A stretch of DNA of 64,000 nucleotides, from IMG/VR virus record IMGVR_UViG_3300043958_000214, one strand, 5' to 3'. The position numbers were made by a program, and so were the translations under genes. The DNA is from a virus. Position 1 is the stretch's first letter, and each line of letters starts with the position of its first letter. The notes beneath the pieces are model-generated. The model was not told the origin of the DNA, made no database searches, and worked only from the letters and a program-made list of their open reading frames with translations. Positions 2,392 to 39,340 of the stretch are shown here, piece by piece.

Positions 2392-2422
2392 CAGTTCCCT
2401 CTCAGCTGGGTAAGTGGTCGCG

Positions 2423-5275
2423 TTACTGGGCCGGTTCGATCCGCAGGCCGAGGCGGTGGTCATAGCGCATGCGGTAACGTCTGCGGCCCACGGCGAAGAG
2501 GTATTCGGATGTGGCGTCGGGGAGGGCGCGGGCGACGATCACGTGAATCTGATCCGCATAACGCGCTTGCTCCCGGTCCGGCTTCCAGTAGTTTTTCGTC
2601 GCGTCATGGACCGCCTTGGATGCCCATTCCGGCAGCGGGACGGTGATCCGCCGGCAGGCCTGCTGCGTGCGCCTAGACGGGGTTGCGCCGCGCTGGAGCT
2701 CCACCGTGTTGCCCAACCCGATGGAGGCGGGGTCGACCCAGCTGGGGGGCATAGGCGCGTTCGGTGTTCGAGGGTCCTCGGTGAGCCAGACGACCTCGAT
2801 GGAGTCGTCTTCCTCGCGAACCCCGATCTTCGCGTCGAGTTCTTCCCCGGTGACGCCGAGGGCGCCCCGGCGGCGCTCGTCCCACCCTCGAAGCGTCTGG
2901 AACTCCTCCCCGGCGAGCATCGCAGTGCGGGTGTCGGGAGCCGGCTTCATGCCGCGCTTTTGCTCGGCGGACTTTCTGGCGTTGCGTGCCCTCTCGGCAT
3001 CCTTCGCTCGCGCGTCGGTGAGCGCCTCCCTCCAGGTTCTCTCGAGAGAGTTCACGGTCGCCTCGTCCTCGGCATAGGCGGCGGCGACCTGGGTGGGGAT
3101 GTCGTCGGGGAGGCGGATGCCGTCCTTGCTGGTGCCGAGGGCAATGAGCGCGGAGCGTAGGAGCGGGTACATGCCGTAGACAAGGTCTGAGCTCTTCGGG
3201 GGAGCCACGGGCGTCGACTGCCATTGGGCGGCGACGATACGGAGCTCGGGGGCGCGCAGGGCGTCGGGCCGTGGCGTGTCTGCGCGGCGGTGGAGGCGCC
3301 CCGCGCGCTGGAGGACGAGGTCCCAGGGCGCGAGGTCGGTGACCATCAGGTCGAAATCAATGTCGAGGGACTGCTCGACGACCTGGGTGGCCACGACGAT
3401 CCTGCGGTACGGGCGGGCGGTGGCGTCACTGCCGAGCTCAGCCTCGATGAGCGTCTCGATGGCCTTGCGGTCCGGGGCGATGAACCGGGAATGATAGAGG
3501 ACGACATCATCCCCGAAGACCGTGCGGAGCCTCGTGTACGTGTCTTGTGCGCGCCCTACCGTGTTGCGGATGACAGCGGCGCACCCGCCATGATCGAGCT
3601 TGGAGGAGAGCATGCTGGCCAGGGCGTCGTCGTCATCGTCGTCGAGGACGAGGCGCACGGTCTGCGTGCGCTCAGATGCGGGCACGACCCTCTGGTGGAC
3701 CCTGTTGTCGGGAGTGACGTAGGTGATGAGCGAAGGGCTAGATGTCACGGCGGTGATCTCGCGCGTTTTCAGGCGGTACCCGCGGGCCCCGTCGCGGTAG
3801 GCGTTGACAAGCCGGATCCTCGACGCGGGCGGGAGGGTCGCGCTCATGAGGATGACGGGGATCCCGTACTTGCCTGCCCAGGCGAGGATGATGTCCAGGA
3901 ACACGCACATGTGCGTGTCATAGGAGTGCACCTCGTCGATGAGGAGGACGCCGCGAGCCATGCCGAGGTGCCTCATGGCCGTGTTCTTAGCTTGAAGGGC
4001 CGCGTAGAGGGCCTGGTCGATGGTTCCAACGACGAGGTCTGAGAGCATGCCCCGGCTGGTCCTCATCGCGAGCCACGGATGAGAGACAACTGCCGAGTCG
4101 TCGCTGCGCGGGGAGGGGAGCCGGACGAACGTATCGCTGAGATCGGCTCGCGAATGAGCGAGGAACGTGCTGACGGGATGGCTCGGACGCGAGGCCTCGA
4201 CCATGCGGATGAACCGTTCGAGGATGGAGTTCGCGGTGGCCATGGTCGGGAGGAAGACGTGGATCCCCGCCATCCCGGCGTTCCCCGCCATGACTGTCGC
4301 CGCGAGCGCGCCGGCTTCTGTTTTCCCTTCGCCCATGGGGGCTTCGATGATCATGAGCCCGGGGGTCCTGTTGCGGGCGATGGTCACGGCCGCGGTCTGG
4401 ATCGGCCGGGCGGAGGGGCGATGGAACCATTGCTGCATCCACTTTTCGGGCGGGAGTCCGGTGTCGGTGGGGTTCCAGTTGACTGGGAGTTGGGAGTGCC
4501 CCCACCCGCGGATGTGGCGGACGCGCATGTTGGCGGGTGAGGTCTGTTCGAAGGGGATCCCCGGGTAGCCGAAGACCTCGTGATCGTTGGACGCGATCCA
4601 GTCCGCTTCGGTGATGAGGCCGAGCAGGAGGATCTGGGCTTCGCGGGTGATTTGGGACCAGGGGCCGTTCGGGGCGAGCCACTGCGTGGCGTCGCAGGCG
4701 TCAATGAGGTGGTTGAGTAGGTCGTTTCGGGCGGCGTTCCATTGGGGTGAAATCCCATATGCCTCCCAGCCGCGGCGGTGATCCTTGAGTTCGCTGTCGT
4801 GTGGCGCGTGCCCGTGGTGGGCGCCGAGGATGTAGCCGATGCGGCGCGCGTCGAGGATCGACCAACCGAGCTCCTCTAGGTAGGTCTCGACGATGATTTG
4901 GCTGTGGATGTTGTGGTGGTAGTCCTCGAAGGGGTCCCCGGGGATTAAGGGAATGTCGAGGCCGAGGTCGATGATCGGGTCGGAGAGGTCTGTGATCTTG
5001 CTCTGGAATGCGGGCGTCGCTTTGCCGATGTCGTGGGCGCCGGCGAGGAAGGCGACGAGTGAGCGCGCCGCCTCCTGCCCTCCTACCGCGCCGGAGACGA
5101 AGTTATGGACGTGGTCGCTGACCGCGCTGTCCCACAGGTGAAGCGCGACATTCGAGGTGTCGGACATGTGGACGGCGAGAGGCACCCAGGAGATGACCTG
5201 GCGTTCGCGTGTCCGAGCCTTGCCCCATAGCGCGGCCGCTGCGGGACTTAGGGAGTCGATGTCCATGTCGTACAT
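2423..5275 (-). CDS. cas3: Cas3 HD nuclease-helicase
   Basis: HD domain (LAVHMSD, GAHDIGKA), Walker A APMGEGKTEA, DEVH, SAT, QRAGRLHR; start set at ATG 5275 because the ORF-track extension runs through the CRISPR array. Confidence 0.95.
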   Translation of the reverse strand: MYDMDIDSLSPAAAALWGKARTRERQVISWVPLAVHMSDTSNVALHLWDSAVSDHVHNFVSGAVGGQEAARSLVAFLAGAHDIGKATPAFQSKITDLSDPIIDLGLDIPLIPGDPFEDYHHNIHSQIIVETYLEELGWSILDARRIGYILGAHHGHAPHDSELKDHRRGWEAYGISPQWNAARNDLLNHLIDACDATQWLAPNGPWSQITREAQILLLGLITEADWIASNDHEVFGYPGIPFEQTSPANMRVRHIRGWGHSQLPVNWNPTDTGLPPEKWMQQWFHRPSARPIQTAAVTIARNRTPGLMIIEAPMGEGKTEAGALAATVMAGNAGMAGIHVFLPTMATANSILERFIRMVEASRPSHPVSTFLAHSRADLSDTFVRLPSPRSDDSAVVSHPWLAMRTSRGMLSDLVVGTIDQALYAALQAKNTAMRHLGMARGVLLIDEVHSYDTHMCVFLDIILAWAGKYGIPVILMSATLPPASRIRLVNAYRDGARGYRLKTREITAVTSSPSLITYVTPDNRVHQRVVPASERTQTVRLVLDDDDDDALASMLSSKLDHGGCAAVIRNTVGRAQDTYTRLRTVFGDDVVLYHSRFIAPDRKAIETLIEAELGSDATARPYRRIVVATQVVEQSLDIDFDLMVTDLAPWDLVLQRAGRLHRRADTPRPDALRAPELRIVAAQWQSTPVAPPKSSDLVYGMYPLLRSALIALGTSKDGIRLPDDIPTQVAAAYAEDEATVNSLERTWREALTDARAKDAERARNARKSAEQKRGMKPAPDTRTAMLAGEEFQTLRGWDERRRGALGVTGEELDAKIGVREEDDSIEVVWLTEDPRTPNAPMPPSWVDPASIGLGNTVELQRGATPSRRTQQACRRITVPLPEWASKAVHDATKNYWKPDREQARYADQIHVIVARALPDATSEYLFAVGRRRYRMRYDHRLGLRIEPAQ

Positions 5276-5279
5276 GCCC

Positions 5280-5289
5280 TGTGTGTGCC
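5280..5289 (-). promoter_or_regulatory. Class-B motif (cas3)
   Basis: GGCACACACA-GGGC-ATG. Confidence 0.65.
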
Positions 5290-5316
5290 GCGAAAAACCG
5301 ACGCAGCGCACAACGG

Positions 5317-5588
5317 GGGCTATCCCCACGCGGGTGGGGAACATCAGGAGCTTGTTGTCCCCCGTCTGTCTGAGGACGGACCATCCCCACGCTGGTGGGG
5401 AACATCGGGTGGGAGAAGAACTCCTCGGGCGGGGCCTGGGACCATCCCCACGCGGGTGGGAAACTAGACGCTGCCGGAGGCGGTCAAGGCTGGTGGGCGG
5501 ACCATCCCCACGCGGGTGGGGAACATGCCGTTGTAGGCCGTGACGACGGGGGCGTCGTTGGATCATCCCCGCATGCGGCGGGGAACGA
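5317..5588 (-). CRISPR. Type I-E mini-array, 5 repeats / 4 spacers
   Basis: 28-nt repeat ATGTTCCCCACCCGCGTGGGGATGGTCC (minus) at 5317, 5378, 5439, 5499; divergent 29-nt copy at 5560; spacers 33, 33, 32, 33 nt; palindromic CCCC..GGGG stem. Confidence 0.95.
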
Positions 5589-26944: not shown

Positions 26945-27018
26945 AGACGACGCCTCGTACCCCCTCCGAAGGGCAGGATCGTGGGTGGACGAACCCGCAG
27001 AGGACAGACAGGGTGAAG

Positions 27019-27090
27019 CGCCCCCGGCAGGATTCGAACCCGCGGCACGTGGGGTAGAGACCCACTGCTCTTCCGCTGAGCTACGGAGGC
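27019..27090 (-). tRNA. tRNA-Arg(TCT)
   Basis: Cloverleaf; anticodon arm GTGGG TCTCTAC CCCAC (C33). Confidence 0.8.
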
Positions 27091-27091
27091 A

Positions 27092-27182
27092 TGGCGTCCT
27101 CGGCGGGAGGGGCCACCTCATCCGCCTTTGGCGTCCTCGGCGGGAGGGGCCACCTCATCCGCCTTTGGCGTCCTCGGCGGGA
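27092..27182 (-). repeat. 37-nt tandem repeats containing the tRNA-Arg(CCT) 3' end
   Basis: 17-nt TGGCGTCCTCGGCGGGA (plus) at 27092, 27129, 27166 with identical linkers. Confidence 0.9.
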
Positions 27183-27241
27183 TTCGAACCCGCAACCTAC
27201 GGTGTAGGGGACCGACGCGCTATCCGTTGCGCCACGAGGAC
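27166..27241 (-). tRNA. tRNA-Arg(CCT)
   Basis: Loop CCCCTAC (C33); CCA encoded. Confidence 0.8.
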
Positions 27242-27245
27242 ATCG

Positions 27246-27317
27246 AGCCACCAGGTGGATTCGAACCACCGTTCCCCGATTACAGGTCGGGAGTTCTCTC
27301 CGCTGAACTATGGAGGC
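27246..27317 (-). tRNA. tRNA-Thr(TGT)
   Basis: CCCGA CCTGTAA TCGGG (C33). Confidence 0.8.
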
Positions 27318-27345
27318 GACGGCCGTGCCTCCCGGCGCAGCCTAG

Positions 27346-27418
27346 AGCCCGAGGTGGGGGTCGAACCCACCGCCTCCCGATTACGAAACGGGCGCTCAAC
27401 CAGGTGAGCTTCTCGGGC
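27346..27418 (-). tRNA. tRNA-Thr(CGT)
   Basis: Loop TTCGTAA. Confidence 0.85.
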
Positions 27419-27421
27419 ATG

Positions 27422-27480
27422 GAGGTGCTGGCCGGAAGCGTTCCACTCACCGACCACTCCTCTTCGAGGTGCTGGCCGGA
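27422..27480 (-). repeat. Duplicated tRNA-Cys 3' end (15 nt)
   Basis: GAGGTGCTGGCCGGA (plus) at 27422 and 27466. Confidence 0.8.
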
Positions 27481-27537
27481 GTCGAACCGGCCTGAGCGGC
27501 TTTGCAGGCCGCGACCTTGCCGCTCGGCCACAGCACC
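27467..27537 (-). tRNA. tRNA-Cys(GCA)
   Basis: GCGGC CTGCAAA GCCGC; U73. Confidence 0.9.
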
Positions 27538-27538
27538 A

Positions 27539-27616
27539 TGGGGAGACTGACCGGATTTGAACCGGCGACGACCCGGGCCACAACCGGGCGTTCTACCAGA
27601 CTGAACTACAGCCTCC
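27539..27616 (-). tRNA. tRNA-His(GTG)
   Basis: G-1:C73, loop TTGTGGC, CCA encoded. Confidence 0.92.
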
Positions 27617-27618
27617 AG

Positions 27619-27690
27619 TGCTTCCGGGTGGAATCGGACCACCGCGCTCCGGGCTTCAACCGGATGCTCTACCAACTGAGCTACAGAAGC
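27619..27690 (-). tRNA. tRNA-Phe(GAA)
   Basis: TCCGG TTGAAGC CCGGA. Confidence 0.88.
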
Positions 27691-27721
27691 AATGCGGGAC
27701 GACGCCCCGCAGGCGCGACCG

Positions 27722-28054
27722 TCACGGGCGGTCGAAAGCGTAGGGCCGACCCGGCGCCGGGTTCAGCTTGTCCCACCCCTCATGGTCCGGGTGGGCGGCC
27801 CAGAACTCGCTCGTGTGCGCGTGAGAGCGGGCGGGATCCAACAGGCGCTCCATCCACGGGTATTGTCGGCACATCTCGTGGGCGCAGTCGTGACACACGA
27901 ACACCGTGGGAATGCCCTGATCGTTGTCGTCATGGAACATGCCGTAGCCGCCGCCGAACGTGATCGGCAGGGCGTTCTCAAGCTGAGTCGTGTCGGGGTC
28001 GTCGTCCTTCCACACCGGCTTGAGTTCCGTCCCGCAGTTGATACAGGTCGCCAT
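27722..28054 (-). CDS. Small putative zinc-binding protein inside the tRNA array
   Basis: CINC and CHDC pairs; RBS AAAGGGG. Confidence 0.7.
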   Translation of the reverse strand: MATCINCGTELKPVWKDDDPDTTQLENALPITFGGGYGMFHDDNDQGIPTVFVCHDCAHEMCRQYPWMERLLDPARSHAHTSEFWAAHPDHEGWDKLNPAPGRPYAFDRP

Positions 28055-28069
28055 CGTGACCCCCTTTCG

Positions 28070-28140
28070 CTCCGCCTCTAGGATTCGAACCTAGGTTCGG
28101 GGAACCAAAATCCCCTGTGCTGCCCTTACACCAAGGCGGA
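28070..28140 (-). tRNA. tRNA-Gln(TTG)
   Basis: GGGGA TTTTGGT TCCCC. Confidence 0.9.
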
Positions 28141-28212
28141 ATTGACTCGGCGTCTTCACGCCGTCGTCGGGATTTCTCCAAAACTTCGGCTTCGATGCCG
28201 CTGGCATCTCAG

Positions 28213-28285
28213 TCGGGATGGCGGGTCTCGAACCCACGACCTTCCGCTCCCAAAGCGGACGCGCTACCTACTGCGCCACATCCCG
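28213..28285 (-). tRNA. tRNA-Pro(TGG)
   Basis: TCCGC TTTGGGA GCGGA. Confidence 0.9.
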
Positions 28286-28289
28286 AAAG

Positions 28290-28362
28290 TGCGCGCGGCG
28301 GGGCTCGAACCCGCAGCCTCCGGCTCCGGAGGCCGGCGCTCTTTCCGTTGAGCTACGCGCGC
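28290..28362 (-). tRNA. tRNA-Arg(CCG)
   Basis: CCGGC CTCCGGA GCCGG. Confidence 0.9.
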
Positions 28363-28363
28363 A

Positions 28364-28441
28364 TGGTTGCGGCGGTTGGACTCGAACCAACGACCCCTCC
28401 GTTATGAGCAGAGCGCTGCTAACCGACTGAGCTACGCCGCA
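28364..28441 (-). tRNA. tRNA with CAT anticodon (elongator Met or Ile2)
   Basis: CTCTG CTCATAA CGGAG; CCA encoded; lacks initiator GGG/CCC. Confidence 0.85.
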
Positions 28442-28464
28442 ATCAAGGCTCCGCGAGGAGCCAG

Positions 28465-28538
28465 TGGTGACGCCTGGGATCGAACCAGGGATCTCCGCCT
28501 TATCAGAGCGGTGCCTTCACCAGCTTGGCCACGTCACC
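28465..28538 (-). tRNA. tRNA-Ile(GAT)
   Basis: CCGCT CTGATAA GGCGG. Confidence 0.9.
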
Positions 28539-28539
28539 G

Positions 28540-28612
28540 TCGGGATGGCGGGGCTCGAACCCACGACCTCGCGGCCCCCAGCCGCGCGCGCTTCCTACTG
28601 CGCCACATCCCG
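28540..28612 (-). tRNA. tRNA-Pro(GGG)
   Basis: CGCGG CTGGGGG CCGCG. Confidence 0.88.
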
Positions 28613-28712
28613 GTTGCACGGCGCTGATCGGGCGCTGACGGCCTGTGCCAAGCCGGAGGTTTCGCAAGACGCCGTACGCGCGTTCGCGGACAGTTGCGGG
28701 CCGACGACCCAG

Positions 28713-28783
28713 AGCGAGTGGCGGGAATCGAACCCGCATCGGGTGCTTGGAAGGCACTCGTCCTGCCATTGGACGACACTCGC
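28713..28783 (-). tRNA. tRNA-Gly(TCC)
   Basis: Loop CTTCCAA; U73. Confidence 0.88.
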
Positions 28784-28892
28784 ATCGGTGCGTTTCGCCT
28801 TGCGGCGCGGAGCACCAGGCCGGCCCACGTGTTTCGCTGGACCCCGAGGGCGGGGCTGGGATTCTTCCGCCGATCGCACGTACGCCTGCGCT

Positions 28893-29190
28893 CTCGGTTC
28901 GGTTCCAGCTACCGGGCTCCTTGATACCGGAGGACGCCACCATCGCTGTTTCGGCTTGACCCGTCATGGTCGCCCTGTCCTGCGGGTTCCAGCAGATTCG
29001 CTCCGCGAGAGCGTCCGCGTAGCGGGGTAAGCATCGGGACCTCGCGGGTCCCGCCCCGCGGCGTTGTTGTCCCTCAACGCCACTCCCATGACCCCGCGTC
29101 CGCGGGGTGAATGCCTCACCAGTGGTCGCGCAGGTTTCTGCGACGTCACCAGAAAACGGGACCCGGACGTCCATGGCCACCGAAGTCGAG
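28893..29190 (-). ncRNA. Candidate structured RNA with RNase P-like pairing topology
   Basis: Terminal pairing CTCG/CGAG, TTCGG/CCGAA, CCA/TGG; GGACGT/GCGTCC and CCGGG/CCCGG pseudoknot; no convincing ORF. Confidence 0.4.
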
Positions 29191-29205
29191 GACTGTTACT
29201 TCCAG

Positions 29206-29278
29206 TCGGAATAGCAGGGCTCGAACCTGCGACCTCGAGGACCCGAACCCCGCGCGCTACCAACTGCGCCATATTCCG
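29206..29278 (-). tRNA. tRNA-Pro(CGG)
   Basis: Loop TTCGGGT. Confidence 0.88.
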
Positions 29279-29282
29279 ATAG

Positions 29283-29354
29283 CTGCTCTGCCAGGATTCG
29301 AACCTAGCGCTCCCGATCCAGAGTCGGGCGGGTTACCGAATACCCCACAGAGCA
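29283..29354 (-). tRNA. tRNA-Gln(CTG)
   Basis: CCCGA CTCTGGA TCGGG. Confidence 0.88.
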
Positions 29355-29421
29355 ATGCGACCGTTGGTCCCAAAAGCTGGGAACGGACACATGAACAACG
29401 CACCGCGCGGAGTGCGCTTCG

Positions 29422-29504
29422 CGGAAAGCAGAGAACTCGAATCCCAGCGCTTGAGCGCCCAACCGACTTCCAATCGGTGCCCGAACCTCACGGGTTTACT
29501 TTCC
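29422..29504 (-). tRNA. tRNA-Ser(GGA)
   Basis: ACCGA TTGGAAG TCGGT; long variable arm. Confidence 0.85.
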
Positions 29505-29505
29505 A

Positions 29506-29583
29506 TGGCGACCTATGTCGGATTCGAACCGACGATCTCCGCCGTGACAGGGCGGCGTCCACTCCAAACTGGACCAATAGGCC
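29506..29583 (-). tRNA. tRNA-Asp(GTC)
   Basis: CCGCC CTGTCAC GGCGG; CCA encoded. Confidence 0.92.
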
Positions 29584-29611
29584 ATTACGCACCGGATGCT
29601 TCCGGTGCCGG

Positions 29612-29684
29612 CTCTCCGAGCAGGACTCGAACCTACGACACGGCGGTTAACGGCCGCCTGCTCTACCAGCTGAGCTACCGGAGA
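29612..29684 (-). tRNA. tRNA-Asn(GTT)
   Basis: GGCGG CCGTTAA CCGCC (C33). Confidence 0.85.
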
Positions 29685-29791
29685 ATGCGTTCTGGGGCCA
29701 GCGGCCTTTGCGACGGCGAACCGCCCCGACACGATGCCGATGGGGCGGTCTGTGACCGAGAGGCCTTACCGGCGTCACGTCCAGAACGTCG

Positions 29792-29864
29792 TACTCCCAG
29801 GGGGACTCGAACCCCCGCCCCCGGAGTGAAGATCCGGGATCCTGGACCGCTAGACGATGGGAGC
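29792..29864 (-). tRNA. tRNA-Glu(TTC)
   Basis: CCGGA TCTTCAC TCCGG (C33). Confidence 0.85.
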
Positions 29865-29883
29865 ATGGGCGCTCTCGCGCCAG

Positions 29884-29956
29884 AGCCCAGTGCGGGGTTC
29901 GAACCCGCGACCTCGCCCTTACCAAGGGCGTGCGCTACCGACTGCGCCAACTAGGC
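29884..29956 (-). tRNA. tRNA-Thr(GGT)
   Basis: CGCCC TTGGTAA GGGCG. Confidence 0.9.
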
Positions 29957-29960
29957 ATCG

Positions 29961-29997
29961 AGCGGATGGTCGGGTTCGAACCGACGATCTTCTCCTT
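29961..29997 (-). pseudogene. 3' half of a tRNA-Gly (probably GCC), broken at the anticodon loop
   Basis: AA GGAGA AGATC GTCGG TTCGAAC CCGAC CATCCGC T remains; IS right end abuts position 37. Confidence 0.75.
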
Positions 29998-30310
29998 TTG
30001 ACATCCTCTCGGCCCTGAGGGACCGAGATTCCTGTTGGCCGTGCGGTCGCCTTCTCAGACTGCGTGCAGGTCAGTGCAGGGGGTTGACGCTTCGCAGGGG
30101 TTGCCGGCCGGCACCTGGGTGCTGGCGGGTCTTACTGCTCCTCCACGTCCAAGGCCGTTGTCCCGGCCCGTCTCACGGTGGGTTTCTTCCAGTCCCAGGG
30201 TGAGGATGTTGGTGGCGGCGTTGATGTCCGCGTTGTCCTCATGCCCGCAGGCCACGCACCGGAAGACCACTTGGCTCTCGCGGCTCCCTTTGCGACGCGG
30301 CCACGCCCGG
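29998..30310 (-). mobile_element. tnpB: IS200/IS605-family remnant: tnpB 3' end plus right end
   Basis: FRCVACGHEDNADINAATNI zinc finger/RuvC-III; right end hairpin CTCGGTCCCTCAGGGCCGAG then GATGTCAA; left boundary approximate. Confidence 0.85.
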
Positions 30311-30341
30311 GCCGCAATCCGGGGCGTGACACCCGGACCAG

Positions 30342-30414
30342 AGCGAGCAGCGGGGATCGAACCCGCGACCTCTTCCGTGGGAGGGAAGCGCGCTACCAGC
30401 TGCGCCATGCTCGC
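30342..30414 (-). tRNA. tRNA-Gly(CCC)
   Basis: CTTCC CTCCCAC GGAAG. Confidence 0.9.
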
Positions 30415-30455
30415 ATGAGCGCCGATCCCAGTACTCGGACCTGCTTGTCGCCCAG

Positions 30456-30540
30456 TACCCGCTCCGGGGCTCGAACCCGGACGTCCTTGCGGACACCGAG
30501 GTTTGAGCTCGGCGCGTCTACCTGATTTCGCCACGCGGGC
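30456..30540 (-). tRNA. tRNA-Leu(CAA)
   Basis: CCGAG CTCAAAC CTCGG; long variable arm. Confidence 0.9.
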
Positions 30541-30699
30541 ATGTGGTGGAGCGCGCGGCGACTCGACCTCCGCGCCCCGGCGCGACTCTTGTCGCCCGGA
30601 TTTCTGGCCGGCCCTGGTGAATGCGCCCGGCACTGGTGAGCCATCAGCAGCTCGGTATCGGCACCACCCGATCCGCGGGCTGCGTCACTCGCCCCAAAG

Positions 30700-30772
30700 T
30701 GGACCGTACCGGGATCGAACCGGTGACCTCCTCGTTGCGAACGAGGCGCGCTACCTACTGCGCTAACAGCCC
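30700..30772 (-). tRNA. tRNA-Ala(CGC)
   Basis: G3:U70; loop TTCGCAA. Confidence 0.9.
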
Positions 30773-30861
30773 AATCGGGCACCCGTGCGCTGCCGTAGCC
30801 ACTCACGCGCGGGCAACCAGTCCGACTCGGGATCTCTCCCTCCCTCGCTGGTCTTGCCCGG

Positions 30862-30934
30862 TGGACCGTGCGGGATTCGGACCCGCGACCTCCGCCATGC
30901 CATGGCGGCGCGCTACCAACTGCGCCAACAGCCC
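30862..30934 (-). tRNA. tRNA-Ala(GGC)
   Basis: G3:U70; loop ATGGCAT. Confidence 0.88.
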
Positions 30935-31078
30935 ATTGAGACACCGTCGCCGAACCTCTGGCGGCACTGCGGCACAGGCCAAGGTTTGGCTATCGTCCTT
31001 GACCCGCCTACGGTGTCTTTCGGCCCCGCGACGGGCCGGGACGCTTCCGCGCCCCCGGACGGTCCGCTGCCCGTGCAG

Positions 31079-31151
31079 TTGGCGATCCCGGGCTCGAACC
31101 GGGGACCCTCTCCTCGTCGTGGAGATGCGCTACCGACTGCGCCAATCGCCA
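31079..31151 (-). tRNA. tRNA-Val(GAC)
   Basis: TCTCC ACGACGA GGAGA (C33, G37). Confidence 0.78.
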
Positions 31152-31333
31152 GTGCGGCCGAGGGCCTGCAGAACCCTCGACTTGATGTCTCGTCCGACGT
31201 CGCGGGCATCCTCGCGTCCCGGTATGTGTGCCGGGCTCGCCCGGCTACCATGTCGGCCGGGGCTCTCGTCGTGGTCGCGGAGGCGAAGTGCACGGCACTT
31301 CTCACCCCGCCGACACCCCTTCGGGTGCCGTCG

Positions 31334-31418
31334 CGGAAGGTGCGGGAGTCGAACTCGCACGGGGTCTCCCCCACACCGCTTTCAAGGCGGCTGCCGGCGC
31401 CAATCGGCTGGACCTTCC
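31334..31418 (-). tRNA. tRNA-Ser(TGA)
   Basis: Loop CTTGAAA; long variable arm. Confidence 0.88.
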
Positions 31419-31421
31419 AAA

Positions 31422-31516
31422 GTGCCGCTGGAGGGAATGGGATGCCCTCCATCTTCACTGCGTGCCGCTGGAGGGAATGGGATGCCCTCCATCTTCACTG
31501 CGTGCCGCTGGAGGGA
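31422..31516 (-). repeat. 40-nt tandem repeats containing the tRNA-Arg(ACG) 3' end
   Basis: GTGCCGCTGGAGGGA (plus) at 31422, 31462, 31502 with identical linkers. Confidence 0.9.
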
Positions 31517-31576
31517 GTCGAACCCCCGACCTCGACGTTCGTAGCGTCGCACTCTATCCTGCTGAGCTACAGCGGC
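31503..31576 (-). tRNA. tRNA-Arg(ACG)
   Basis: CGACG CTACGAA CGTCG. Confidence 0.9.
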
Positions 31577-31619
31577 ATTGCGTCCGGGGACGAGCGAGGA
31601 TCCCCGGACAGTAGTCTCG

Positions 31620-32500
31620 GCACGCCTTCCCGGAGTCGACCCGGGAGCGTCTCGCCTTCGCCAAAGGGCGGTCTCGCTGGCGCGCTACCCGTCCTGAATT
31701 CTTGGGCCGAGGACTACTTCGGCTTGCAGCGCCACTCGGCCTCCCGGCCGGCCTCGAATCGGCTGATGCCCTGCACGACATGAATGCCGCGCGCTTCGGG
31801 AAGTTGATGCGAGTGAGAGTATCCCGCATGATCTCGGTGTTCTTTCGCCGCCGTATGGATTAGCGACTTCTCCACGGTGTTCCCACCGTACCCACCACAC
31901 ACGGTCGGTTGCGCCGACCAGTCGTCGAGTCATCGACTACTCCACCGGTTTCGATTCGTCTTGGGATTGCAGGTCCCAGGATTGCTCTACCGCCGCATGA
32001 ACCACGAGGCTCCTTGCGAGAACCACGTAGCCTCCGTTGCCCGAAAGCCGAAGGATTAGTGCGCTATTGTCGATGACTGAGGAAGTCTTTCGCTATGAAA
32101 AAACCATTTCATGTGGTTTGAGGTACCGGGACGCGCTTCCTCTGAGGTTCCGGCTCCTTTTGAAAGTCAGAATGCCTCACGCCCCCATATGCGTTCGTTG
32201 TCGGCTACTAGCAATCTGTCTGTCGTCCACGATCCCGTCGGACCGTTTCCGGCATTCATGGGCCCCGCCCTCGGCTGACGACCTCGGACTCCTGACCCTC
32301 ACGAACGACGCACCGCGCTCACCTGACACTCCCGCGACACGCCACGCTAGCGTGTGGGCCCTCAGCAGTTTTGCCCTTGGGCCACGGGAGCGGCTCGCGC
32401 GGCGAGGGACCCCCACTTACGGATCCCTGCTCGCCCGGCGTGCGTGGATGTACCACCGAAGTGGCGGGCAGGTGTACCGGACCGTGCCCTTTCACCGGCT
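31620..32500 (-). ncRNA. Probable GOLLD-like large ncRNA (boundaries approximate)
   Basis: About 900 nt without a credible ORF inside a tRNA array; lower-GC core; GGTTCTCGCAAGGA..GTGGTT..GGTAGAG segment recalled as GOLLD-like. Confidence 0.6.
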
Positions 32501-32531
32501 CACGCCGGCTTATGCCCCCACGCGGGCATCG

Positions 32532-32603
32532 CACTCCCAGGGGGATTCGAACCCTCGTCGCCCGGCTGAGAACCGGGCGTCTTGACCACTGGACTATGGG
32601 AGC
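32532..32603 (-). tRNA. tRNA-Glu(CTC)
   Basis: CCCGG TTCTCAG CCGGG. Confidence 0.9.
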
Positions 32604-32608
32604 CTGCG

Positions 32609-32689
32609 TGCCGATCGAGGGACTTGAACCCTCACGCCCGAAGACACCAGCACCTCATGCTGGCGCGTCTGCCATTCCGCCAGATCGGC
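32609..32689 (-). tRNA. tRNA-Leu(GAG)
   Basis: CCAGC ATGAGGT GCTGG. Confidence 0.88.
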
Positions 32690-32720
32690 AATGCGGCGAT
32701 TCGGCGCGCCGCGCGCCTCG

Positions 32721-32802
32721 TACCGACTCCGGGGCTCGAACCCGGATGCCCGAAGGCACCGCCACCTGAAGGCGGCGCGTCTGCCAATTTCGCCAAGTCG
32801 GC
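32721..32802 (-). tRNA. tRNA-Leu(CAG)
   Basis: CCGCC TTCAGGT GGCGG. Confidence 0.9.
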
Positions 32803-32803
32803 A

Positions 32804-32875
32804 TGGTCGACGGTCTGGGAATCGAACCCAGCACGACCTCCGTGTAGGGGAGGCTTGCGTCCCAGCGTCCCGTCG
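32804..32875 (-). tRNA. tRNA-Val(TAC), atypical D-arm
   Basis: CCTCC CCTACAC GGAGG (C33); good T-arm; CCA encoded. Confidence 0.65.
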
Positions 32876-32924
32876 GATGGCGCGGAGGCCGTTGGAGGAG
32901 ATGGAGAGCCCCGACCTCCGCGCC

Positions 32925-32999
32925 TGGCATACCGACCGGGGTTCGAACCCGGATCTGCGGTGTTGGAGACCGCTGTTCTCACCGTTGAACTATCGGCAT
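32925..32999 (-). tRNA. tRNA-Trp(CCA)
   Basis: GCGGT CTCCAAC ACCGC; CCA encoded. Confidence 0.9.
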
Positions 33000-33026
33000 A
33001 GTGGGCACCGGCATCCCGGTGCTTTG

Positions 33027-33099
33027 TGCGCCCAGAGGGGTTCGAACCCTCGACCCGGAGCTTAAAAGGCAACTGCTCTACCAACTGAGCTATAGGCGC
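33027..33099 (-). tRNA. tRNA-Lys(TTT)
   Basis: Loop CTTTTAA; two mismatches in anticodon stem. Confidence 0.78.
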
Positions 33100-33116
33100 A
33101 AGAAACGTGAAGCCAG

Positions 33117-33190
33117 TACCCCGTCTGGGGATCGAACCCAGGACCCGACGCTTAAGAGGCGCCTGCTCTTACCGGCTGAGCTAACGAGGC
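33117..33190 (-). tRNA. tRNA-Lys(CTT)
   Basis: GGCGC CTCTTAA GCGTC. Confidence 0.9.
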
Positions 33191-33243
33191 ATGATGGAGA
33201 AGGAGAGGCGCGGCATTCGCCGCTCGCCCACCTGCTCACTGCG

Positions 33244-33315
33244 TAGCGCAGGCCGGATTCGGACCGGCATCTTCTGGCGTATGAGGCCAGTGTGTTCCCG
33301 TTACACCACCGCGCG
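33244..33315 (-). tRNA. tRNA with CAT anticodon (possibly initiator-like)
   Basis: CTGGC CTCATAC GCCAG; unpaired C1/U72 but no GGG/CCC stem. Confidence 0.78.
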
Positions 33316-33319
33316 TCAC

Positions 33320-33945
33320 GCCGGGCGCCGAGTCGCTGCGAGCGCTTTCGCTGCTCGAGTCTCGGCTGCGGGATAGCCCGCCACGTCCTGCCCCGGCGAC
33401 AGGAGGTTCCGGTATGCGTGTACTCGGCCGGACCCCGGTTTCCGTAGCCCGTCCGAGTACCGGGTGGGCGGCATGGCCCTCGGCGCGGGGCCCCGCGCCT
33501 TCGCTGCCCCGGCAGGCAGGACGACCTCCTCACTCATGTCACGCAAGCCGGACGAGGTCGGTTCCGGTCGCGCGGGCGGACGTTCCGCCGACCTCACCGC
33601 CGGCTTCCTGCCTGGCAATGAGGTGGAGTGTCCCGCGGTCCGTGCACGGCTCGCGGGGGTCCCGGATTCCGTTCGGCTCCGGTGGCCGGATCCCAAGGTT
33701 AGCGTCGCAGGTTGGTTGACGGGGAGGTTTGGCCTGGCCGTTCCCATGCACAGGGGTCCGCGTGGTGTCGTCACCGGACGTGTCCGCGCTTCCCCCTTCC
33801 TAGCCCCGATGACAGCCGGGGAGAGGGCGTTGAATGCACCCAGGGTATGACGGTCGCTGGGTGCCCCTCACCGCGCTCCGGGGCGGGATCAACCCGCCCT
33901 TGCGTCGCGCTCGGCTTCGCCGCGGGGCGAGAGGCCGAGGTCTCC
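33320..33945 (-). ncRNA. Candidate ~620-nt structured RNA
   Basis: No credible ORF; many stems (GTACTCGG/CCGAGTAC, GAGGTCGG/CCGACCTC, GGCGCGGGG/CCCCGCGCC). Confidence 0.4.
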
Positions 33946-33948
33946 ACG

Positions 33949-34029
33949 TGCCGGCTGAGGGGGTCGAACCCTCATGCCCGAAGGCGCTGGCTCCTAAGGC
34001 CAGTGCGTCTGCCATTTCGCCAAGCCGGC
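33949..34029 (-). tRNA. tRNA-Leu(TAG)
   Basis: CTGGC CTTAGGA GCCAG. Confidence 0.9.
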
Positions 34030-34156
34030 AGTTCCCGGGGATGAGGCGCGGCTGCCGGGCCAGCCTGAGGCGTGCGCCGGGGGCTACCGGGCGTCGTTTC
34101 CCACTCCGATTTGGGCGTCACCACAGGTGTGGGAGCGGCCTGGAGGCGGACGATCG

Positions 34157-34229
34157 TGGACCCACGGGGAATCGAACCCCGAACCCCCTGCTTGCAAAGC
34201 AGGTGCGCTACCGTTTGCGCTATGAGCCC
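34157..34229 (-). tRNA. tRNA-Ala(TGC)
   Basis: G3:U70; CCTGC TTTGCAA GCAGG. Confidence 0.9.
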
Positions 34230-34305
34230 AGCTTCCGGGTCCTCGGCATCGCGGGCGGTCGTCGCCGTGTGCATCCGCGACCCAGCGGCTTGAACGCTGG
34301 CCGGA

Positions 34306-34360
34306 CAGTGGAGCTGCGGGGAATGGAATACCCCTCGCTTCCAGTGGAGCTGCGGGGAAT
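34306..34360 (-). repeat. Duplicated tmRNA 3' end (19 nt)
   Basis: CAGTGGAGCTGCGGGGAAT (plus) at 34306 and 34342. Confidence 0.85.
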
Positions 34361-34691
34361 CGAACCCCGGTCCGAGATGGCAAGTCATTCAAGGATTTCA
34401 CGAGCGTAGGACGGCGAAGACTCCTGGGCGCGCCCGCGCCGTCCACGGCGCGCCCTCGTTTCCGATCATTGTCTCAACGCCGGGCCTGGTCGGTCGTCCC
34501 GTCGTCCAGTCGCACTACATGATGCCTGCCACCTGGGGGTGCGACCGCCCCGGTGCGGCACTCGTCACGCGGCGAGAATGAAGTTGTCGTTGGCAACTAT
34601 GGGTGCAGCGCCAGTTGTTGACGGGGGTGATGCTGCCTGCCCCGGCTCGACTTTCAATCATCGTTTCATCCCGTCGAAACCGATCAGCCCC
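34345..34691 (-). ncRNA. ssrA: tmRNA
   Basis: 5' GGGGCTGATCGGTTTCGAC; 3' T-arm and CAGCTCCA with G3:U70; tag ORF ANDNFILAA* at 34565-34594. Confidence 0.95.
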
Positions 34692-34720
34692 GATAGGGAT
34701 ACACCCTCAAGGTGCACCAG

Positions 34721-34803
34721 CGGAAGAAGGAGGTCTCGATCCCCAGCCCGATGGGCCAAGCCGCCTAGCAAACGGTTCCAGCCACCCGGCTGGTTCTTCT
34801 TCC
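34721..34803 (-). tRNA. tRNA-Ser(GCT)
   Basis: GGAAGAA/TTCTTCC acceptor; loop TTGCTAG; long variable arm. Confidence 0.75.
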
Positions 34804-34974
34804 ATGTGGGCGGGGACCGCTCGGCCCCCGCCCTAGTGTCGGCCGGCATGACACCGGCCGGTACCTCGGGATGGTGCCCGAGGCTGCTGCCCGCCATGTG
34901 GTGGCGGGCATGTTGTCTGTCCTCTGTGTAGTTCATCAAGATCATGTTGAGATCGGCTTGCGCCGAACCCTGCG

Positions 34975-35059
34975 CGGATCGAGAGGGAATCGAACCCCCG
35001 GGCCCTTTCAGACCGCCTGTATTCGAAGCAGGTCCCGGCTACCAACACCGGACCGATCC
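34975..35059 (-). tRNA. tRNA-Ser(CGA)
   Basis: Loop TTCGAAT; long variable arm. Confidence 0.82.
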
Positions 35060-35103
35060 ACTGACATCCGTCACCTATGCGTAGGCGGATGCCCTCGTAT
35101 GTA

Positions 35104-35114
35104 GTTGTGAGGCA
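35104..35114 (-). promoter_or_regulatory. Class-A motif core at head of tRNA array
   Basis: GCATG-N11-TGCCTCACAAC. Confidence 0.8.
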
Positions 35115-35143
35115 GTCGCGCGTGTCATGCACGGTCTTGCCGG

Positions 35144-35225
35144 TGGGAGATGAAGGACTCGAACCTCCGGTGTTTCCCCGTGCCCGATTTACAGTCGGGT
35201 GCCGTCGCCGCTGGGCCAATCTCCC
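35144..35225 (-). tRNA. tRNA-Tyr(GTA)
   Basis: CCCGA CTGTAAA TCGGG; long variable arm. Confidence 0.9.
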
Positions 35226-37170: not shown

Positions 37171-39340
37171 GGGGCCTCCTTTCCGGTACTGCCATGTGTG
37201 TGCCACGAGAAGGCTGGACAGCGTGCATTGACGTTGCGGGCGTTCGATGGGTCCCGGGCTGCCTGTTGATGGCCATGTTGATGAGATCGATGACGAGCGC
37301 GGCGACTGCGGCGTCCTTCCCGTCGACGACGGAGACGTCGGAGTCGCCTCCCAGGACGGGGTTGAGGGTCTTCGCCTTCTGCGCGAGGATGCCCTGAATG
37401 CGTTCGTCCAGGGTGCCGGGCGCGACCATGGTGGTGGCGGTCATCTGGTTTCGTTGTCCGATGCGACGGATCCGGTCGAGAGCCTGCTCAACGAGGGCTG
37501 GTGTCCAGTCGGTTTCCACGAACAAGGCGTCGGCGGAGCGGGTGAGGGTGACGCCGACGCCGGCGGCCGTGATGGAGGCGACGAGGACGGCGGTGCGTCC
37601 GGCTTGGAAGTCGGCGATGATGCCGGGAATCGCGGATTGCGGGGTCTCTCCCCAGATGGCGTCCACGGGCACCCCGAGATCTGAGACCGCGTCGATCATC
37701 GCTTCGGTGACGACACGGTGGTGCGTCCACACGATGAGGGGCCTGTCCCAGGTCCCGCCCTTGTCGGGGCGCGCGGACTCCACGAAGTCTCTGACCCAGT
37801 CCTTGGCCGCGTCGATCTTGGCGAGTCCCGCGGCCTTGCGAAGTTGGGAGACGAGCTCGAAACCGTCTTCACGTGCCATTTCTTCGATGGCTTGTTCGAT
37901 CATCGGGGCCGGGAGGTTCGGGGCGAACTTCGGGTTGTTATCCGTCCACTCGCGGATCCGGTCGAGGATTTCCGCGTGGGTCTTGCGGAAGCCGGCGAGG
38001 TTGACGTCGACGATGAGGGGCACCTGCATGAGGTCGGGTAGGTCGAGAACATCGGCCTTGCGCCGGCGCACCCAGACGTGCCGGTTCATTTCACTTCCGA
38101 GGTCCTCCAGTGTCGTTTGGCGTGGGACCCATCCGCGCATCTGGTCTTGCCGGCAGTACGTCTCCATGAAGTGGCTGTAGCCGCCGAAGACGGGCTGGAG
38201 GTGCCCGGAGATGTCCAGGAGGGGCGCGAGGTCTGCGGGGCTGGACACGAGCGGGGTCCCGGTGATGGGGATGCGCAGGCCGCGAACGTTGTGGGCGAGG
38301 CGACGAACCGCTTTCGACCTCTTCGATTCCAGGCCTTTCTCGCGATGCGCTTCGTCAACGATCAGCCCGTCAGGGCGCCACGCGATGAGAGAGTCCAGGA
38401 GAGCCGAGCGTGACGCGAGCAGGGAGTCCGCGACGATCACGACACCGCGGTCGGGGAAGGGGCGAATCTTCCGGGTCGGGCTGATGACAGAGACCTCCAT
38501 GTTCCAGCCGGCCGTCTTGATCTCCGTCTTCCAATTGGACAAGACGACGGGTGGGACAACGCAGACCGCACGGGTCGTTCCGACTGTGGCGAGCGCGGTG
38601 ATGGCTTGCACGGTTTTGCCGAGTCCAGGCTCGTCAGTGAGCGCGGAGTGTCCGGCGGCCACGGCCCGGGCACCCGAGGCCTGGAAGCCGAAGAGTGTGC
38701 GGGCAGGCTGCCACAGGACGGGCTCGCCGGGGACGTGCAGGTCGTCTTGGGCGTGCGCGAGGCGAGACAGGTCCCTTTCGTCGGCCCCTCCGGAGGCGAA
38801 GGGCCGGGCACAGCGGTGCCGGTGGGCGGCGTCGAGGACGTCGCGCGGAAGAATGAACCGGGTGTCGAGCATGTCGGGGGTGGACACCCAGAACGCCTGA
38901 CGCGCTTTGTCCCACTCGTGGTAGGCGGGCAGGAGGTCCTCAACCCCGACGGCGAACCGGGGGTAGACCCACGTTCCAGCATCATCGTCGTCAAGTGCGA
39001 CCACAGGGACGGCGAGGTCAGCCAGACAGGTGATGTGCCCCGTGGCCGCTGCGTAGTCGACATCGAATCCGAGCTCGGCGAGAAGCCGGTCGATGTCGGG
39101 CCCCGGATTGGTGACGATCCACGTCTTGTCCTCTGGGTTCCACCGTCTGTTCGGCATGGCCTTGACCCACTCCCCCAGGGTGCGGGGGCGTCCGGGGCGA
39201 ACCATCTTGCCGCGGGCGAACGGGCTCTTCTTGGGAGGGTAGGCGGGGAACCGGACGCAACCCGTGGACATCTTCGGCCCGAACCTCATGACGAGACGCG
39301 GGTCGAGGAAGTGCCCCTCAAGGGTGGCGGTGGGGCTCAT
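37160..39340 (-). CDS. SNF2/SWI2-family helicase
   Basis: DEPGLGKT, DEAH, TGTP, QALDRIRRIGQ. Confidence 0.92.
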   Translation of the reverse strand: MSPTATLEGHFLDPRLVMRFGPKMSTGCVRFPAYPPKKSPFARGKMVRPGRPRTLGEWVKAMPNRRWNPEDKTWIVTNPGPDIDRLLAELGFDVDYAAATGHITCLADLAVPVVALDDDDAGTWVYPRFAVGVEDLLPAYHEWDKARQAFWVSTPDMLDTRFILPRDVLDAAHRHRCARPFASGGADERDLSRLAHAQDDLHVPGEPVLWQPARTLFGFQASGARAVAAGHSALTDEPGLGKTVQAITALATVGTTRAVCVVPPVVLSNWKTEIKTAGWNMEVSVISPTRKIRPFPDRGVVIVADSLLASRSALLDSLIAWRPDGLIVDEAHREKGLESKRSKAVRRLAHNVRGLRIPITGTPLVSSPADLAPLLDISGHLQPVFGGYSHFMETYCRQDQMRGWVPRQTTLEDLGSEMNRHVWVRRRKADVLDLPDLMQVPLIVDVNLAGFRKTHAEILDRIREWTDNNPKFAPNLPAPMIEQAIEEMAREDGFELVSQLRKAAGLAKIDAAKDWVRDFVESARPDKGGTWDRPLIVWTHHRVVTEAMIDAVSDLGVPVDAIWGETPQSAIPGIIADFQAGRTAVLVASITAAGVGVTLTRSADALFVETDWTPALVEQALDRIRRIGQRNQMTATTMVAPGTLDERIQGILAQKAKTLNPVLGGDSDVSVVDGKDAAVAALVIDLINMAINRQPGTHRTPATSMHAVQPSRGTHMAVPERRPHGC
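37195..37204 (-). promoter_or_regulatory. Class-B motif
   Basis: GGCACACACA then RBS AAAGGAGG. Confidence 0.6.

What the first reader, a model, noticed from the sequence alone, without database searches (positions are those of the whole stretch)
27092..34360. tRNA/tmRNA 3'-end echoes that rebuild a hairpin
Seen at four loci: the last 15-19 nt of Arg(CCT) (2 extra copies, 37-nt period), Cys (1), Arg(ACG) (2 extra, 40-nt period) and tmRNA (1) are repeated downstream. Each linker carries a stretch complementary to the copied T-stem strand: GGCGG/CCGCC, TGGTCGG/CCGGCCA, TGGAGGG/CCCTCCA, GGGG/CCCC. The Arg(ACG) and tmRNA linkers share nearly the same loop (CATCCCATT vs TATTCCATT). Tailored complementarity is not expected from simple slippage. 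Inference: minihelix-like units that are processing signals, decoys for tRNA-targeting nucleases or integrases, or small RNAs released from the array.
Basis: partly seen in the sequence, partly recalled or inferred. Interest (0 to 1): 0.7.

Follow-up and report, generated by a model that had tools for sequence, protein, structure and literature searches.

The report
Miniature tRNA-linked repeat hairpins
Behind four genes of a plasmid-like tRNA array, the last 15-19 bases of the gene are copied again and folded away by a matching but deliberately imperfect mirror sequence; this is a very small version of the long-known, still unexplained tRNA-linked repeats of E. coli, and it most likely acts as a harmless folded spacer rather than as a new kind of RNA.

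Summary
The four echoes are real, far beyond chance, and their linkers are tailored to their own gene. Each linker carries an imperfect reverse complement of the whole copied strand, not only of the T-stem. Its purines are all kept (34/34); most pyrimidines are changed (14/21). Three related arrays show the units gained, lost and doubled: Arg(ACG) is always present, tmRNA, Cys and Arg(CCT) units are patchy. There is slight covariation (one G-C/C-G swap, one added G-C pair) and some pair-breaking change. The design is not new: E. coli tRNA-linked repeats (TLR/RtT, 98-181 bp) copy the same segment, and I found the same gene-specific mirror arm in them. These are 36-44 bp miniatures without the E. 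coli core. None was found in 377 genes of 15 other arrays. Folding models suggest the arm sequesters the echo yet is mostly too weak to unfold the tRNA. The minihelix reading is weakened: acceptor-like pairs are broken, base 73 is paired, and the loops are not T-loops. No RNA data could be obtained. The scan has noted longer TLR-like units before in other genomes. Verdict: new miniature variant of a known, functionally unexplained kind.

The parts
27018..35225 (-). Long tRNA array (39 genes called by ARAGORN including tmRNA; further tRNA-like genes uncalled) on a GC-rich, plasmid- or ICE-like contig
   Evidence: related arrays
27166..27241 (-). tRNA-Arg(CCT), encodes CCA; host gene of two units
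27129..27165 (-). Arg(CCT) unit 1 (37 nt): mirror arm 27150-27163, 6-nt loop, echo 27129-27145
   Evidence: colinear diverged homolog in L009
27092..27128 (-). Arg(CCT) unit 2, identical copy: arm 27113-27126, echo 27092-27108
27466..27537 (-). tRNA-Cys(GCA); with the unit in place its CCA is no longer encoded (the echo carries it)
27422..27465 (-). Cys unit (44 nt): mirror arm 27450-27462, inner hairpin, echo 27422-27436
   Evidence: cleanly absent in L009, L013-L015, L017
31502..31576 (-). tRNA-Arg(ACG), host gene of two units
31462..31501 (-). Arg(ACG) unit 1 (40 nt): arm 31485-31498, 9-nt loop 31476-31484, echo 31462-31476
   Evidence: one copy in every relative
31422..31461 (-). Arg(ACG) unit 2, identical copy: arm 31445-31458, echo 31422-31436
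34344..34691 (-). tmRNA (tag ANDNFILAA), host gene of one unit
34306..34343 (-). tmRNA unit (36-nt period): arm 34331-34343, 9-nt loop 34322-34330, echo 34306-34324
   Evidence: present in L011, L016, L017, absent in L009/L010
33191..33242 (-). Trailer of tRNA-Met(CAT): hairpin with a mirror-like arm (33227-33239) but no echo; possibly a decayed fifth unit (inference)
28166..28211 (-). Trailer of tRNA-Pro(TGG): two small hairpins ending in an 8-nt copy of the Pro acceptor strand; in L009 it also follows Pro(GGG)
31807..32185 (-). GOLLD RNA (Rfam RF02032), context only

Best explanation
These are miniature tRNA-linked repeats. Each is a 20-29 bp insert at a tRNA or tmRNA 3' end that leaves positions about 58-60 to 74-76 duplicated (shown). 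The insert's purine-rich 5' arm is an imperfect reverse complement of the duplicated strand (shown). In the array's precursor RNA the arm pairs with the echo and forms a self-contained hairpin spacer (predicted). This stops the echo from stealing the tRNA's 5' acceptor strand, while the mismatches keep the arm too weak, in three of four cases, to unfold the finished tRNA (predicted). The spacer is then cut away with the trailer (inferred). Origin is inferred as DNA template switching at the T-arm, with a hairpin core shared between Arg(ACG) and tmRNA and its arms refitted to each gene. Recombination between the direct copies deletes or doubles units (presence, absence and doubling shown in relatives). 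They are tolerated, structurally constrained spacers, not needed for the tRNAs.
For: Same copied segment and same gene-specific mirror arm in E. coli TLRs after Tyr, Lys, Arg, Pro and Ser tRNAs, with changes again mostly at C opposite G. Clean presence/absence and 0/1/2 copy number among related arrays. Arm bias: purines kept 34/34, pyrimidines 7/21, p about 3e-8, register chosen by pairing. Folding: own acceptor stem probability 0.72/0.56/0.40 (Arg-CCT, Cys, Arg-ACG) and 0.63 (tmRNA end) with the real linker, against 0.13/0.02/0.06/0.15 with shuffled linkers; a perfect mirror arm alone drops it to 0.00 in all four, the real arm alone leaves 0.99/0.07/0.97/1.00. At two G.U wobble sites the arm has A, matching the complement of the 3' strand and not the gene's 5' strand. 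Some covariation: one G-C/C-G swap in Arg(CCT) and one extra G-C pair in the L011 tmRNA unit.
Against: No RNA data. Folding models ignore tertiary structure and modifications; the Cys arm is predicted to invade its tRNA, and in L009 the Arg(CCT) echo pairs better with the tRNA 5' strand than the gene's own 3' strand does. Covariation rests on two sequences and does not beat its shuffle control (266/500). The Arg(ACG) unit is kept in all lineages sampled, which could mean it is useful. The origin mechanism is not demonstrated, and two wobble sites are weak evidence because the arms are A-rich anyway.
Confidence: 0.55

Rival explanations
1. The units are processing signals or minihelix-like small RNAs: the repeated 3' end is recognised by RNase P, RNase Z or RNase E-type enzymes, so the hairpin is cut out as a discrete RNA or helps release the next tRNA.
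For: In E. coli, TLRs of rRNA operons give discrete short-lived RNAs and the authors suggest the repeat is an RNase E signal (PMC8144298). The Arg(ACG) unit is present in all relatives. The Arg(CCT) hairpin keeps its geometry despite 12 differences in 36 nt. The last Arg(CCT) and Cys echoes end in an encoded CCA.
Against: Acceptor-equivalent pairs are broken (5, 2, 3 and 2 defects in 7), base 73 is paired in all four, and loops lack the T-loop consensus except a 6/7 match for tmRNA. Three of four units are missing in some close relatives whose genes are otherwise intact. No Rfam family matches the units.
Confidence: 0.2
2. A tiny selfish, non-autonomous element that is copied into tRNA 3' ends by an enzyme encoded elsewhere, the mirror arm being part of its targeting or of its recognition as single-stranded DNA.
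For: Arg(ACG) and tmRNA units share a core across two different genes, as E. coli TLRs share a core across five tRNA types. Four of 38 genes here against 0 of 377 in other arrays, p about 6e-5, suggests a lineage-specific generator. Filled and empty sites are clean.
Against: Cys and Arg(CCT) units have unrelated loops. The shared-loop motif was found nowhere else in the window, in any fetched locus outside this lineage, or in viral contigs. No candidate enzyme among about 45 ORFs scanned. Strand asymmetry of the DNA hairpins is small, and the triloop-like trailer start is common in arrays without echoes (25/377).
Confidence: 0.15
3. Scars or decoys of integrase-mediated insertion: each echo is the displaced 3' end left by an island that integrated in the tRNA gene and was almost wholly deleted.
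For: The echo keeps the old downstream context, as a displaced 3' end would; for Cys it carries the encoded CCA. Partial tRNA duplications by integrating elements are well known (PMC9897764). Some tmRNA echoes elsewhere look like island junctions.
Against: The copy starts at position 58-60 and lacks an intact T-loop. A 20-29 bp remnant that mirrors the target at four separate genes is not expected from deletion. No integrase hit among the ORFs scanned.
Confidence: 0.1

Closest known systems
E. coli tRNA-linked repeats (TLRs; 22 copies at ten loci, Rudd 1999 as cited in PMC8144298), including the tyrT/tyrV 178-bp repeats (RttR/RtT RNA)
   Same: Lie directly behind a tRNA gene in one to several copies; end in an exact copy of the gene's 3' end starting at the 3' side of the T-loop; carry a gene-specific, imperfect mirror arm that pairs with the copy, with changes mostly at C opposite G; a core shared between different tRNA genes.
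   Different: 36-44 bp instead of 98-181 bp; no multi-hairpin core and no sequence match to it or to any Rfam family; the arm starts 0-4 nt after the gene and covers the whole copied strand, including bases 73-74; found in a mobile long tRNA array of a probable actinobacterium and behind tmRNA.
attL/attR duplications of tRNA 3' ends by tyrosine integrases
   Same: Direct repeat of the tRNA or tmRNA 3' end with the old downstream context on the distal copy.
   Different: Insert is only 20-29 bp, mirrors the target, has no integrase nearby, and the repeat lacks an intact T-loop.
tRNA minihelices (acceptor stem plus T-arm; model substrates of RNase P, RNase Z, CCA-adding enzyme and synthetases; from my own knowledge)
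   Same: Hairpin of about 12-14 pairs whose 3' strand is that of a tRNA.
   Different: Acceptor-equivalent half is the most mismatched part, the discriminator is paired, loops are 6, 9 or 15 nt and not T-loops.
Long tRNA arrays (L-arrays) of plasmids and phages (PMC8421152), with GOLLD RNA
   Same: This is the setting: about 40 co-oriented tRNA genes, tmRNA and GOLLD on a mobile element.
   Different: No hairpin-type echo in 377 genes of 15 other such arrays.

Membership tests
E. coli tRNA-linked repeat (TLR/RtT) | 3' end identical over about 18-19 bp to the 3' end of the gene immediately upstream | tested here: met
   15, 15, 17 and 19 nt exact copies, starting at position 58-60; slightly shorter than the E. 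coli range in three cases
E. coli tRNA-linked repeat (TLR/RtT) | Located in a tRNA or rRNA operon directly behind the gene, one to five copies per locus | tested here: met
   One or two copies directly behind four genes of the array
E. coli tRNA-linked repeat (TLR/RtT) | Gene-specific inverted arm pairing with the copy (seen here in E. coli TLRs; not taken from the literature) | tested here: met
E. coli tRNA-linked repeat (TLR/RtT) | Shared multi-hairpin core sequence and 98-181 bp length | tested here: not met
   Units are 36-44 bp, lack the core; no Rfam match even at E up to 5. So: works like a TLR, not a member by descent as far as can be shown
E. coli tRNA-linked repeat (TLR/RtT) | Transcribed and processed to a discrete RNA | not testable with these tools
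tRNA minihelix | Well-paired 7-bp acceptor stem stacked on a 5-bp T-stem | tested here: not met
   5, 2, 3 and 2 mismatches or bulges in the acceptor-equivalent half
tRNA minihelix | 7-nt T-loop consensus | tested here: not met
   Loops of 6, 15, 9 and 9 nt; only the last 7 nt of the tmRNA loop approach the consensus, 6/7
tRNA minihelix | Unpaired discriminator and CCA end | tested here: not met
   Base 73 is paired in all four predicted hairpins, base 74 in three; CCA encoded only on the Arg(CCT) and Cys echoes
Integrase att-site duplication | Integrase gene within or next to the insert | tested here: not met
   Inserts are 20-29 bp; no integrase hit among about 45 window ORFs scanned; the rest of the contig was not scanned
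Integrase att-site duplication | A relative with a full-length island at the same site | tested here: inconclusive
   None in the few related arrays available

The most novel reading that the evidence does not exclude
The units are the minimal working form of the TLR family: an actively spread or actively maintained 36-44 nt tRNA-end mimic that is released as RNA or recognised as DNA by a dedicated factor, so that filled and empty sites in this one lineage reveal what TLRs do and how their arms are refitted to each tRNA.
Probability: 0.15. Interest if true: 0.75.

Novelty: new variant of a known kind. Interest (0 to 1): 0.42.

Why it matters
TLRs were first described in 1978 and, apart from the rRNA-operon members, still have no known function (PMC8144298). 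These units reduce the design to copy, mirror arm and loop in under 45 bases, and come with natural filled, empty, doubled and diverged alleles in related arrays. That makes two questions easy to test: whether the mirror arm exists to neutralise the copied tRNA end, and how arms get refitted to each gene. If they are only tolerated spacers, the interest is modest.

Tried and rejected
No whole genome is held for the window. Protein-anchored scans for relatives in viral and metagenome contigs found nothing; DNA-pattern scans found no further homologous units; three contig look-ups failed or gave no array. A DNA-hairpin reading based on C-GNA-G triloops after base 74 was considered and downgraded: the motif starts 25 of 377 trailers in arrays that have no echoes, and sense versus antisense folding energies differ little. 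Derivation from a duplicated tRNA gene that lost its D and anticodon arms was rejected as the main route: arms follow the complement of the 3' strand at two wobble sites and pair with bases 73-74, which the gene's 5' strand does not. Terminator function was rejected: none of the units has a U-tract. Assembly artefact is unlikely: identical units occur in independent assemblies (L006, L007, L018). Williams 2002/2003 and Bosl and Kersten 1991 could not be read, and Rudd 1999 was seen only through PMC8144298, so I cannot say whether the mirror arm of E. coli TLRs is already in print. The tallies include genomes flagged unpublished (G341 and nine others); only negative counts rest on them.
Full report
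Setting. The window holds a minus-strand array of 38 called tRNA genes plus tmRNA between 27018 and 35225, with a GOLLD RNA inside it. Flanking genes include Cas3, Cse1, an NAD-dependent ligase, SNF2 and DEAD-type helicases, a nucleotide kinase and an AAA_10 ATPase. The best array matches are large plasmids of Actinomycetota, and the contig carrying these proteins reaches 192 kb. I infer a large plasmid or integrative element of an actinobacterium; the host is not identified.

Observation. All copies start at tRNA position 58-60 and end at 74-76. Chance expectation is about 1.5e-4 for the array and no cross-gene match occurs in 1406 pairs. The same units are in independent assemblies.

Anatomy. 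Each linker holds a 13-14 nt arm that mirrors the whole copied strand, followed by a loop. Against a perfect reverse complement, all 34 purines are kept and 14 of 21 pyrimidines are changed or lost (p about 3e-8; the register was chosen by pairing, so this is an upper bound on the strength). The resulting non-standard pairs are almost all G.A, A.G or U.G. The arms are tailored: the four linkers rank 1st, 2nd, 4th and 6th of 38 trailers for pairing with their own gene's 3' strand, and few foreign strands do as well (combined p about 0.004). The third-ranked trailer, behind tRNA-Met(CAT), has a mirror-like arm but no echo and may be a decayed unit (inference). The Arg(ACG) and tmRNA units align along the linker and share a 15-nt stretch around the loop at 14/15 in relatives; the Cys and Arg(CCT) loops are unrelated.

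Relatives. Homologs of two flanking proteins led to three related, syntenic arrays: L009/L010, L011/L017 and L016 with L013-L015. Arg(ACG): one unit in every relative, two in the window; arm changes are one that breaks a pair, one at a mismatch, and in L016 the tRNA has mutated while the echo has not. tmRNA: present in L011, L016 and L017, cleanly absent in L009/L010; L011 has one extra G-C pair, added on both sides, so its echo is no longer an exact copy. Cys: absent from all relatives, where the gene ends in an encoded CCA that in the window sits on the echo. Arg(CCT): absent in L013-L015 and L017, but L009 has a colinear 36-nt unit that differs at 12 positions and keeps the same 14-position stem, with one G-C/C-G swap. 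With two sequences this does not beat the shuffle control (266/500); it does beat all slid registers.

Distribution. No hairpin-type echo in 377 testable genes of 15 other plasmid and phage arrays (4/38 against 0/377, p about 6e-5). No short tmRNA echo in 401 sampled Actinomycetota genomes (the first half of the pattern matched 5 of 5 control tmRNAs). A scan of species genomes gave about 13 true tmRNA echoes among 120 hits, most of them slippage repeats or island-junction-like; one (L076/L200, Ignavibacteriales, period 39) has the same mirror-arm design and one more (L133) partly so. The miniature form is therefore rare but has arisen elsewhere.

Known relatives. E. coli has 22 tRNA-linked repeats at ten loci, each ending in 18-19 bp identical to the 3' end of the upstream gene, with no known function for the tRNA-operon members (PMC8144298). 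I extracted them from K-12. Units behind Tyr, Lys, Arg(ACG), Pro(CGG) and Ser(GGA) are 98-181 bp, share a multi-hairpin core, and most carry a gene-specific mirror arm that pairs with the copy; in the Lys and Arg arms the changes again fall mostly on C opposite G. Tailored complementarity is thus a property of the known family. The window's units match its layout but not its length or core sequence, so they work like TLRs without being shown to descend from them.

How it most likely works. A free copy of the 3' strand would compete for the tRNA's 5' acceptor strand. In folding models with shuffled linkers the gene's own acceptor stem falls to 0.02-0.15; with the real linker it is 0.40-0.72. 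A perfect mirror arm would fold back over three bases onto the gene's own 3' end before the echo is made and abolish the stem (0.00 in all four); the real arm leaves 0.97-1.00 in three cases, but 0.07 for Cys. The mismatched arm thus looks tuned to hide the echo without unfolding the tRNA. These are secondary-structure predictions without tertiary contacts or modifications. Origin by template switching at the T-arm, and transfer of one core between Arg(ACG) and tmRNA, are inferences from the direct-inverted-direct layout and the shared loop. Loss and doubling by recombination between direct copies fit the alleles seen.

Against the minihelix reading. The acceptor-equivalent half is the most damaged part (5, 2, 3 and 2 defects in 7 positions), base 73 is paired in all four, and the loops are not T-loops. 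No RNA evidence could be obtained.

Earlier notes of this scan describe longer (130-400 bp) tRNA-end echo modules in CPR and other genomes, several likened to RtT. They agree with a reading I had reached before consulting them and are not independent evidence.

Verdict. Observation confirmed; interpretation partly supported. New miniature variant of a known but unexplained kind. Interest 0.42.

Noticed in passing
window 29960-30330 (-): tRNA-Gly(GCC) survives only as its 3' half; a TnpB/IS200-IS605-type remnant replaces its 5' half and the neighbouring long tRNA, the junction lying just 3' of the anticodon.
   Followed up: partly
L009 15984-16074 (also L011, L016, L017): Relatives carry an unusual tRNA with an 8-bp acceptor stem and an irregular anticodon arm, called Cys(GCA) in L009 and L016; it recalls selC*/allo-tRNAs (from memory, untested).
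   Followed up: no
window 29421-29504, 32806-32874, 34720-34803 (-): Three tRNA-like genes not called by ARAGORN in the window: Ser(GGA), a degenerate Val(TAC) and Ser(GCT); counterparts are called in relatives.
   Followed up: partly
window 28166-28211 (-): The Pro(TGG) trailer has two small hairpins that vary with compensation among relatives and ends in an 8-nt copy of the Pro acceptor strand; L009 has it behind both Pro(GGG) and Pro(TGG).
   Followed up: partly
L009 18999-19112: In this relative the diverged Arg(CCT) echo pairs 7/7 with the tRNA's 5' acceptor strand, whereas the gene's own 3' strand has a C.A mismatch; the echo could act as an alternative 3' end.
   Followed up: partly
L213 430-1780 (Actinomycetota genome G206): 157-199 bp TLR-like units with a shared core behind tRNA-Pro(TGG), Arg(TCT) and Arg(TCG), each ending in a rebuilt T-arm and the gene's 3' end.
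   Followed up: no
L001-L005, L245-L249 and window array: Many CCA-less tRNA genes of actinobacterial arrays are followed by the same trailer start (C74 then GCAG or GAAG), 25 of 377 in other arrays; possibly a 3'-processing preference.
   Followed up: partly
window 31807-32185 (-): GOLLD RNA confirmed above the Rfam gathering score.
   Followed up: yes
window about 39237-39278: A 42-bp in-frame indel near the start of the SNF2 gene is the only difference between the window and L006 over 20.9 kb.
   Followed up: no
window 763-5566 (-): Type I-E CRISPR genes (Cse1, Cas3) on the same element as the tRNA array.
   Followed up: no
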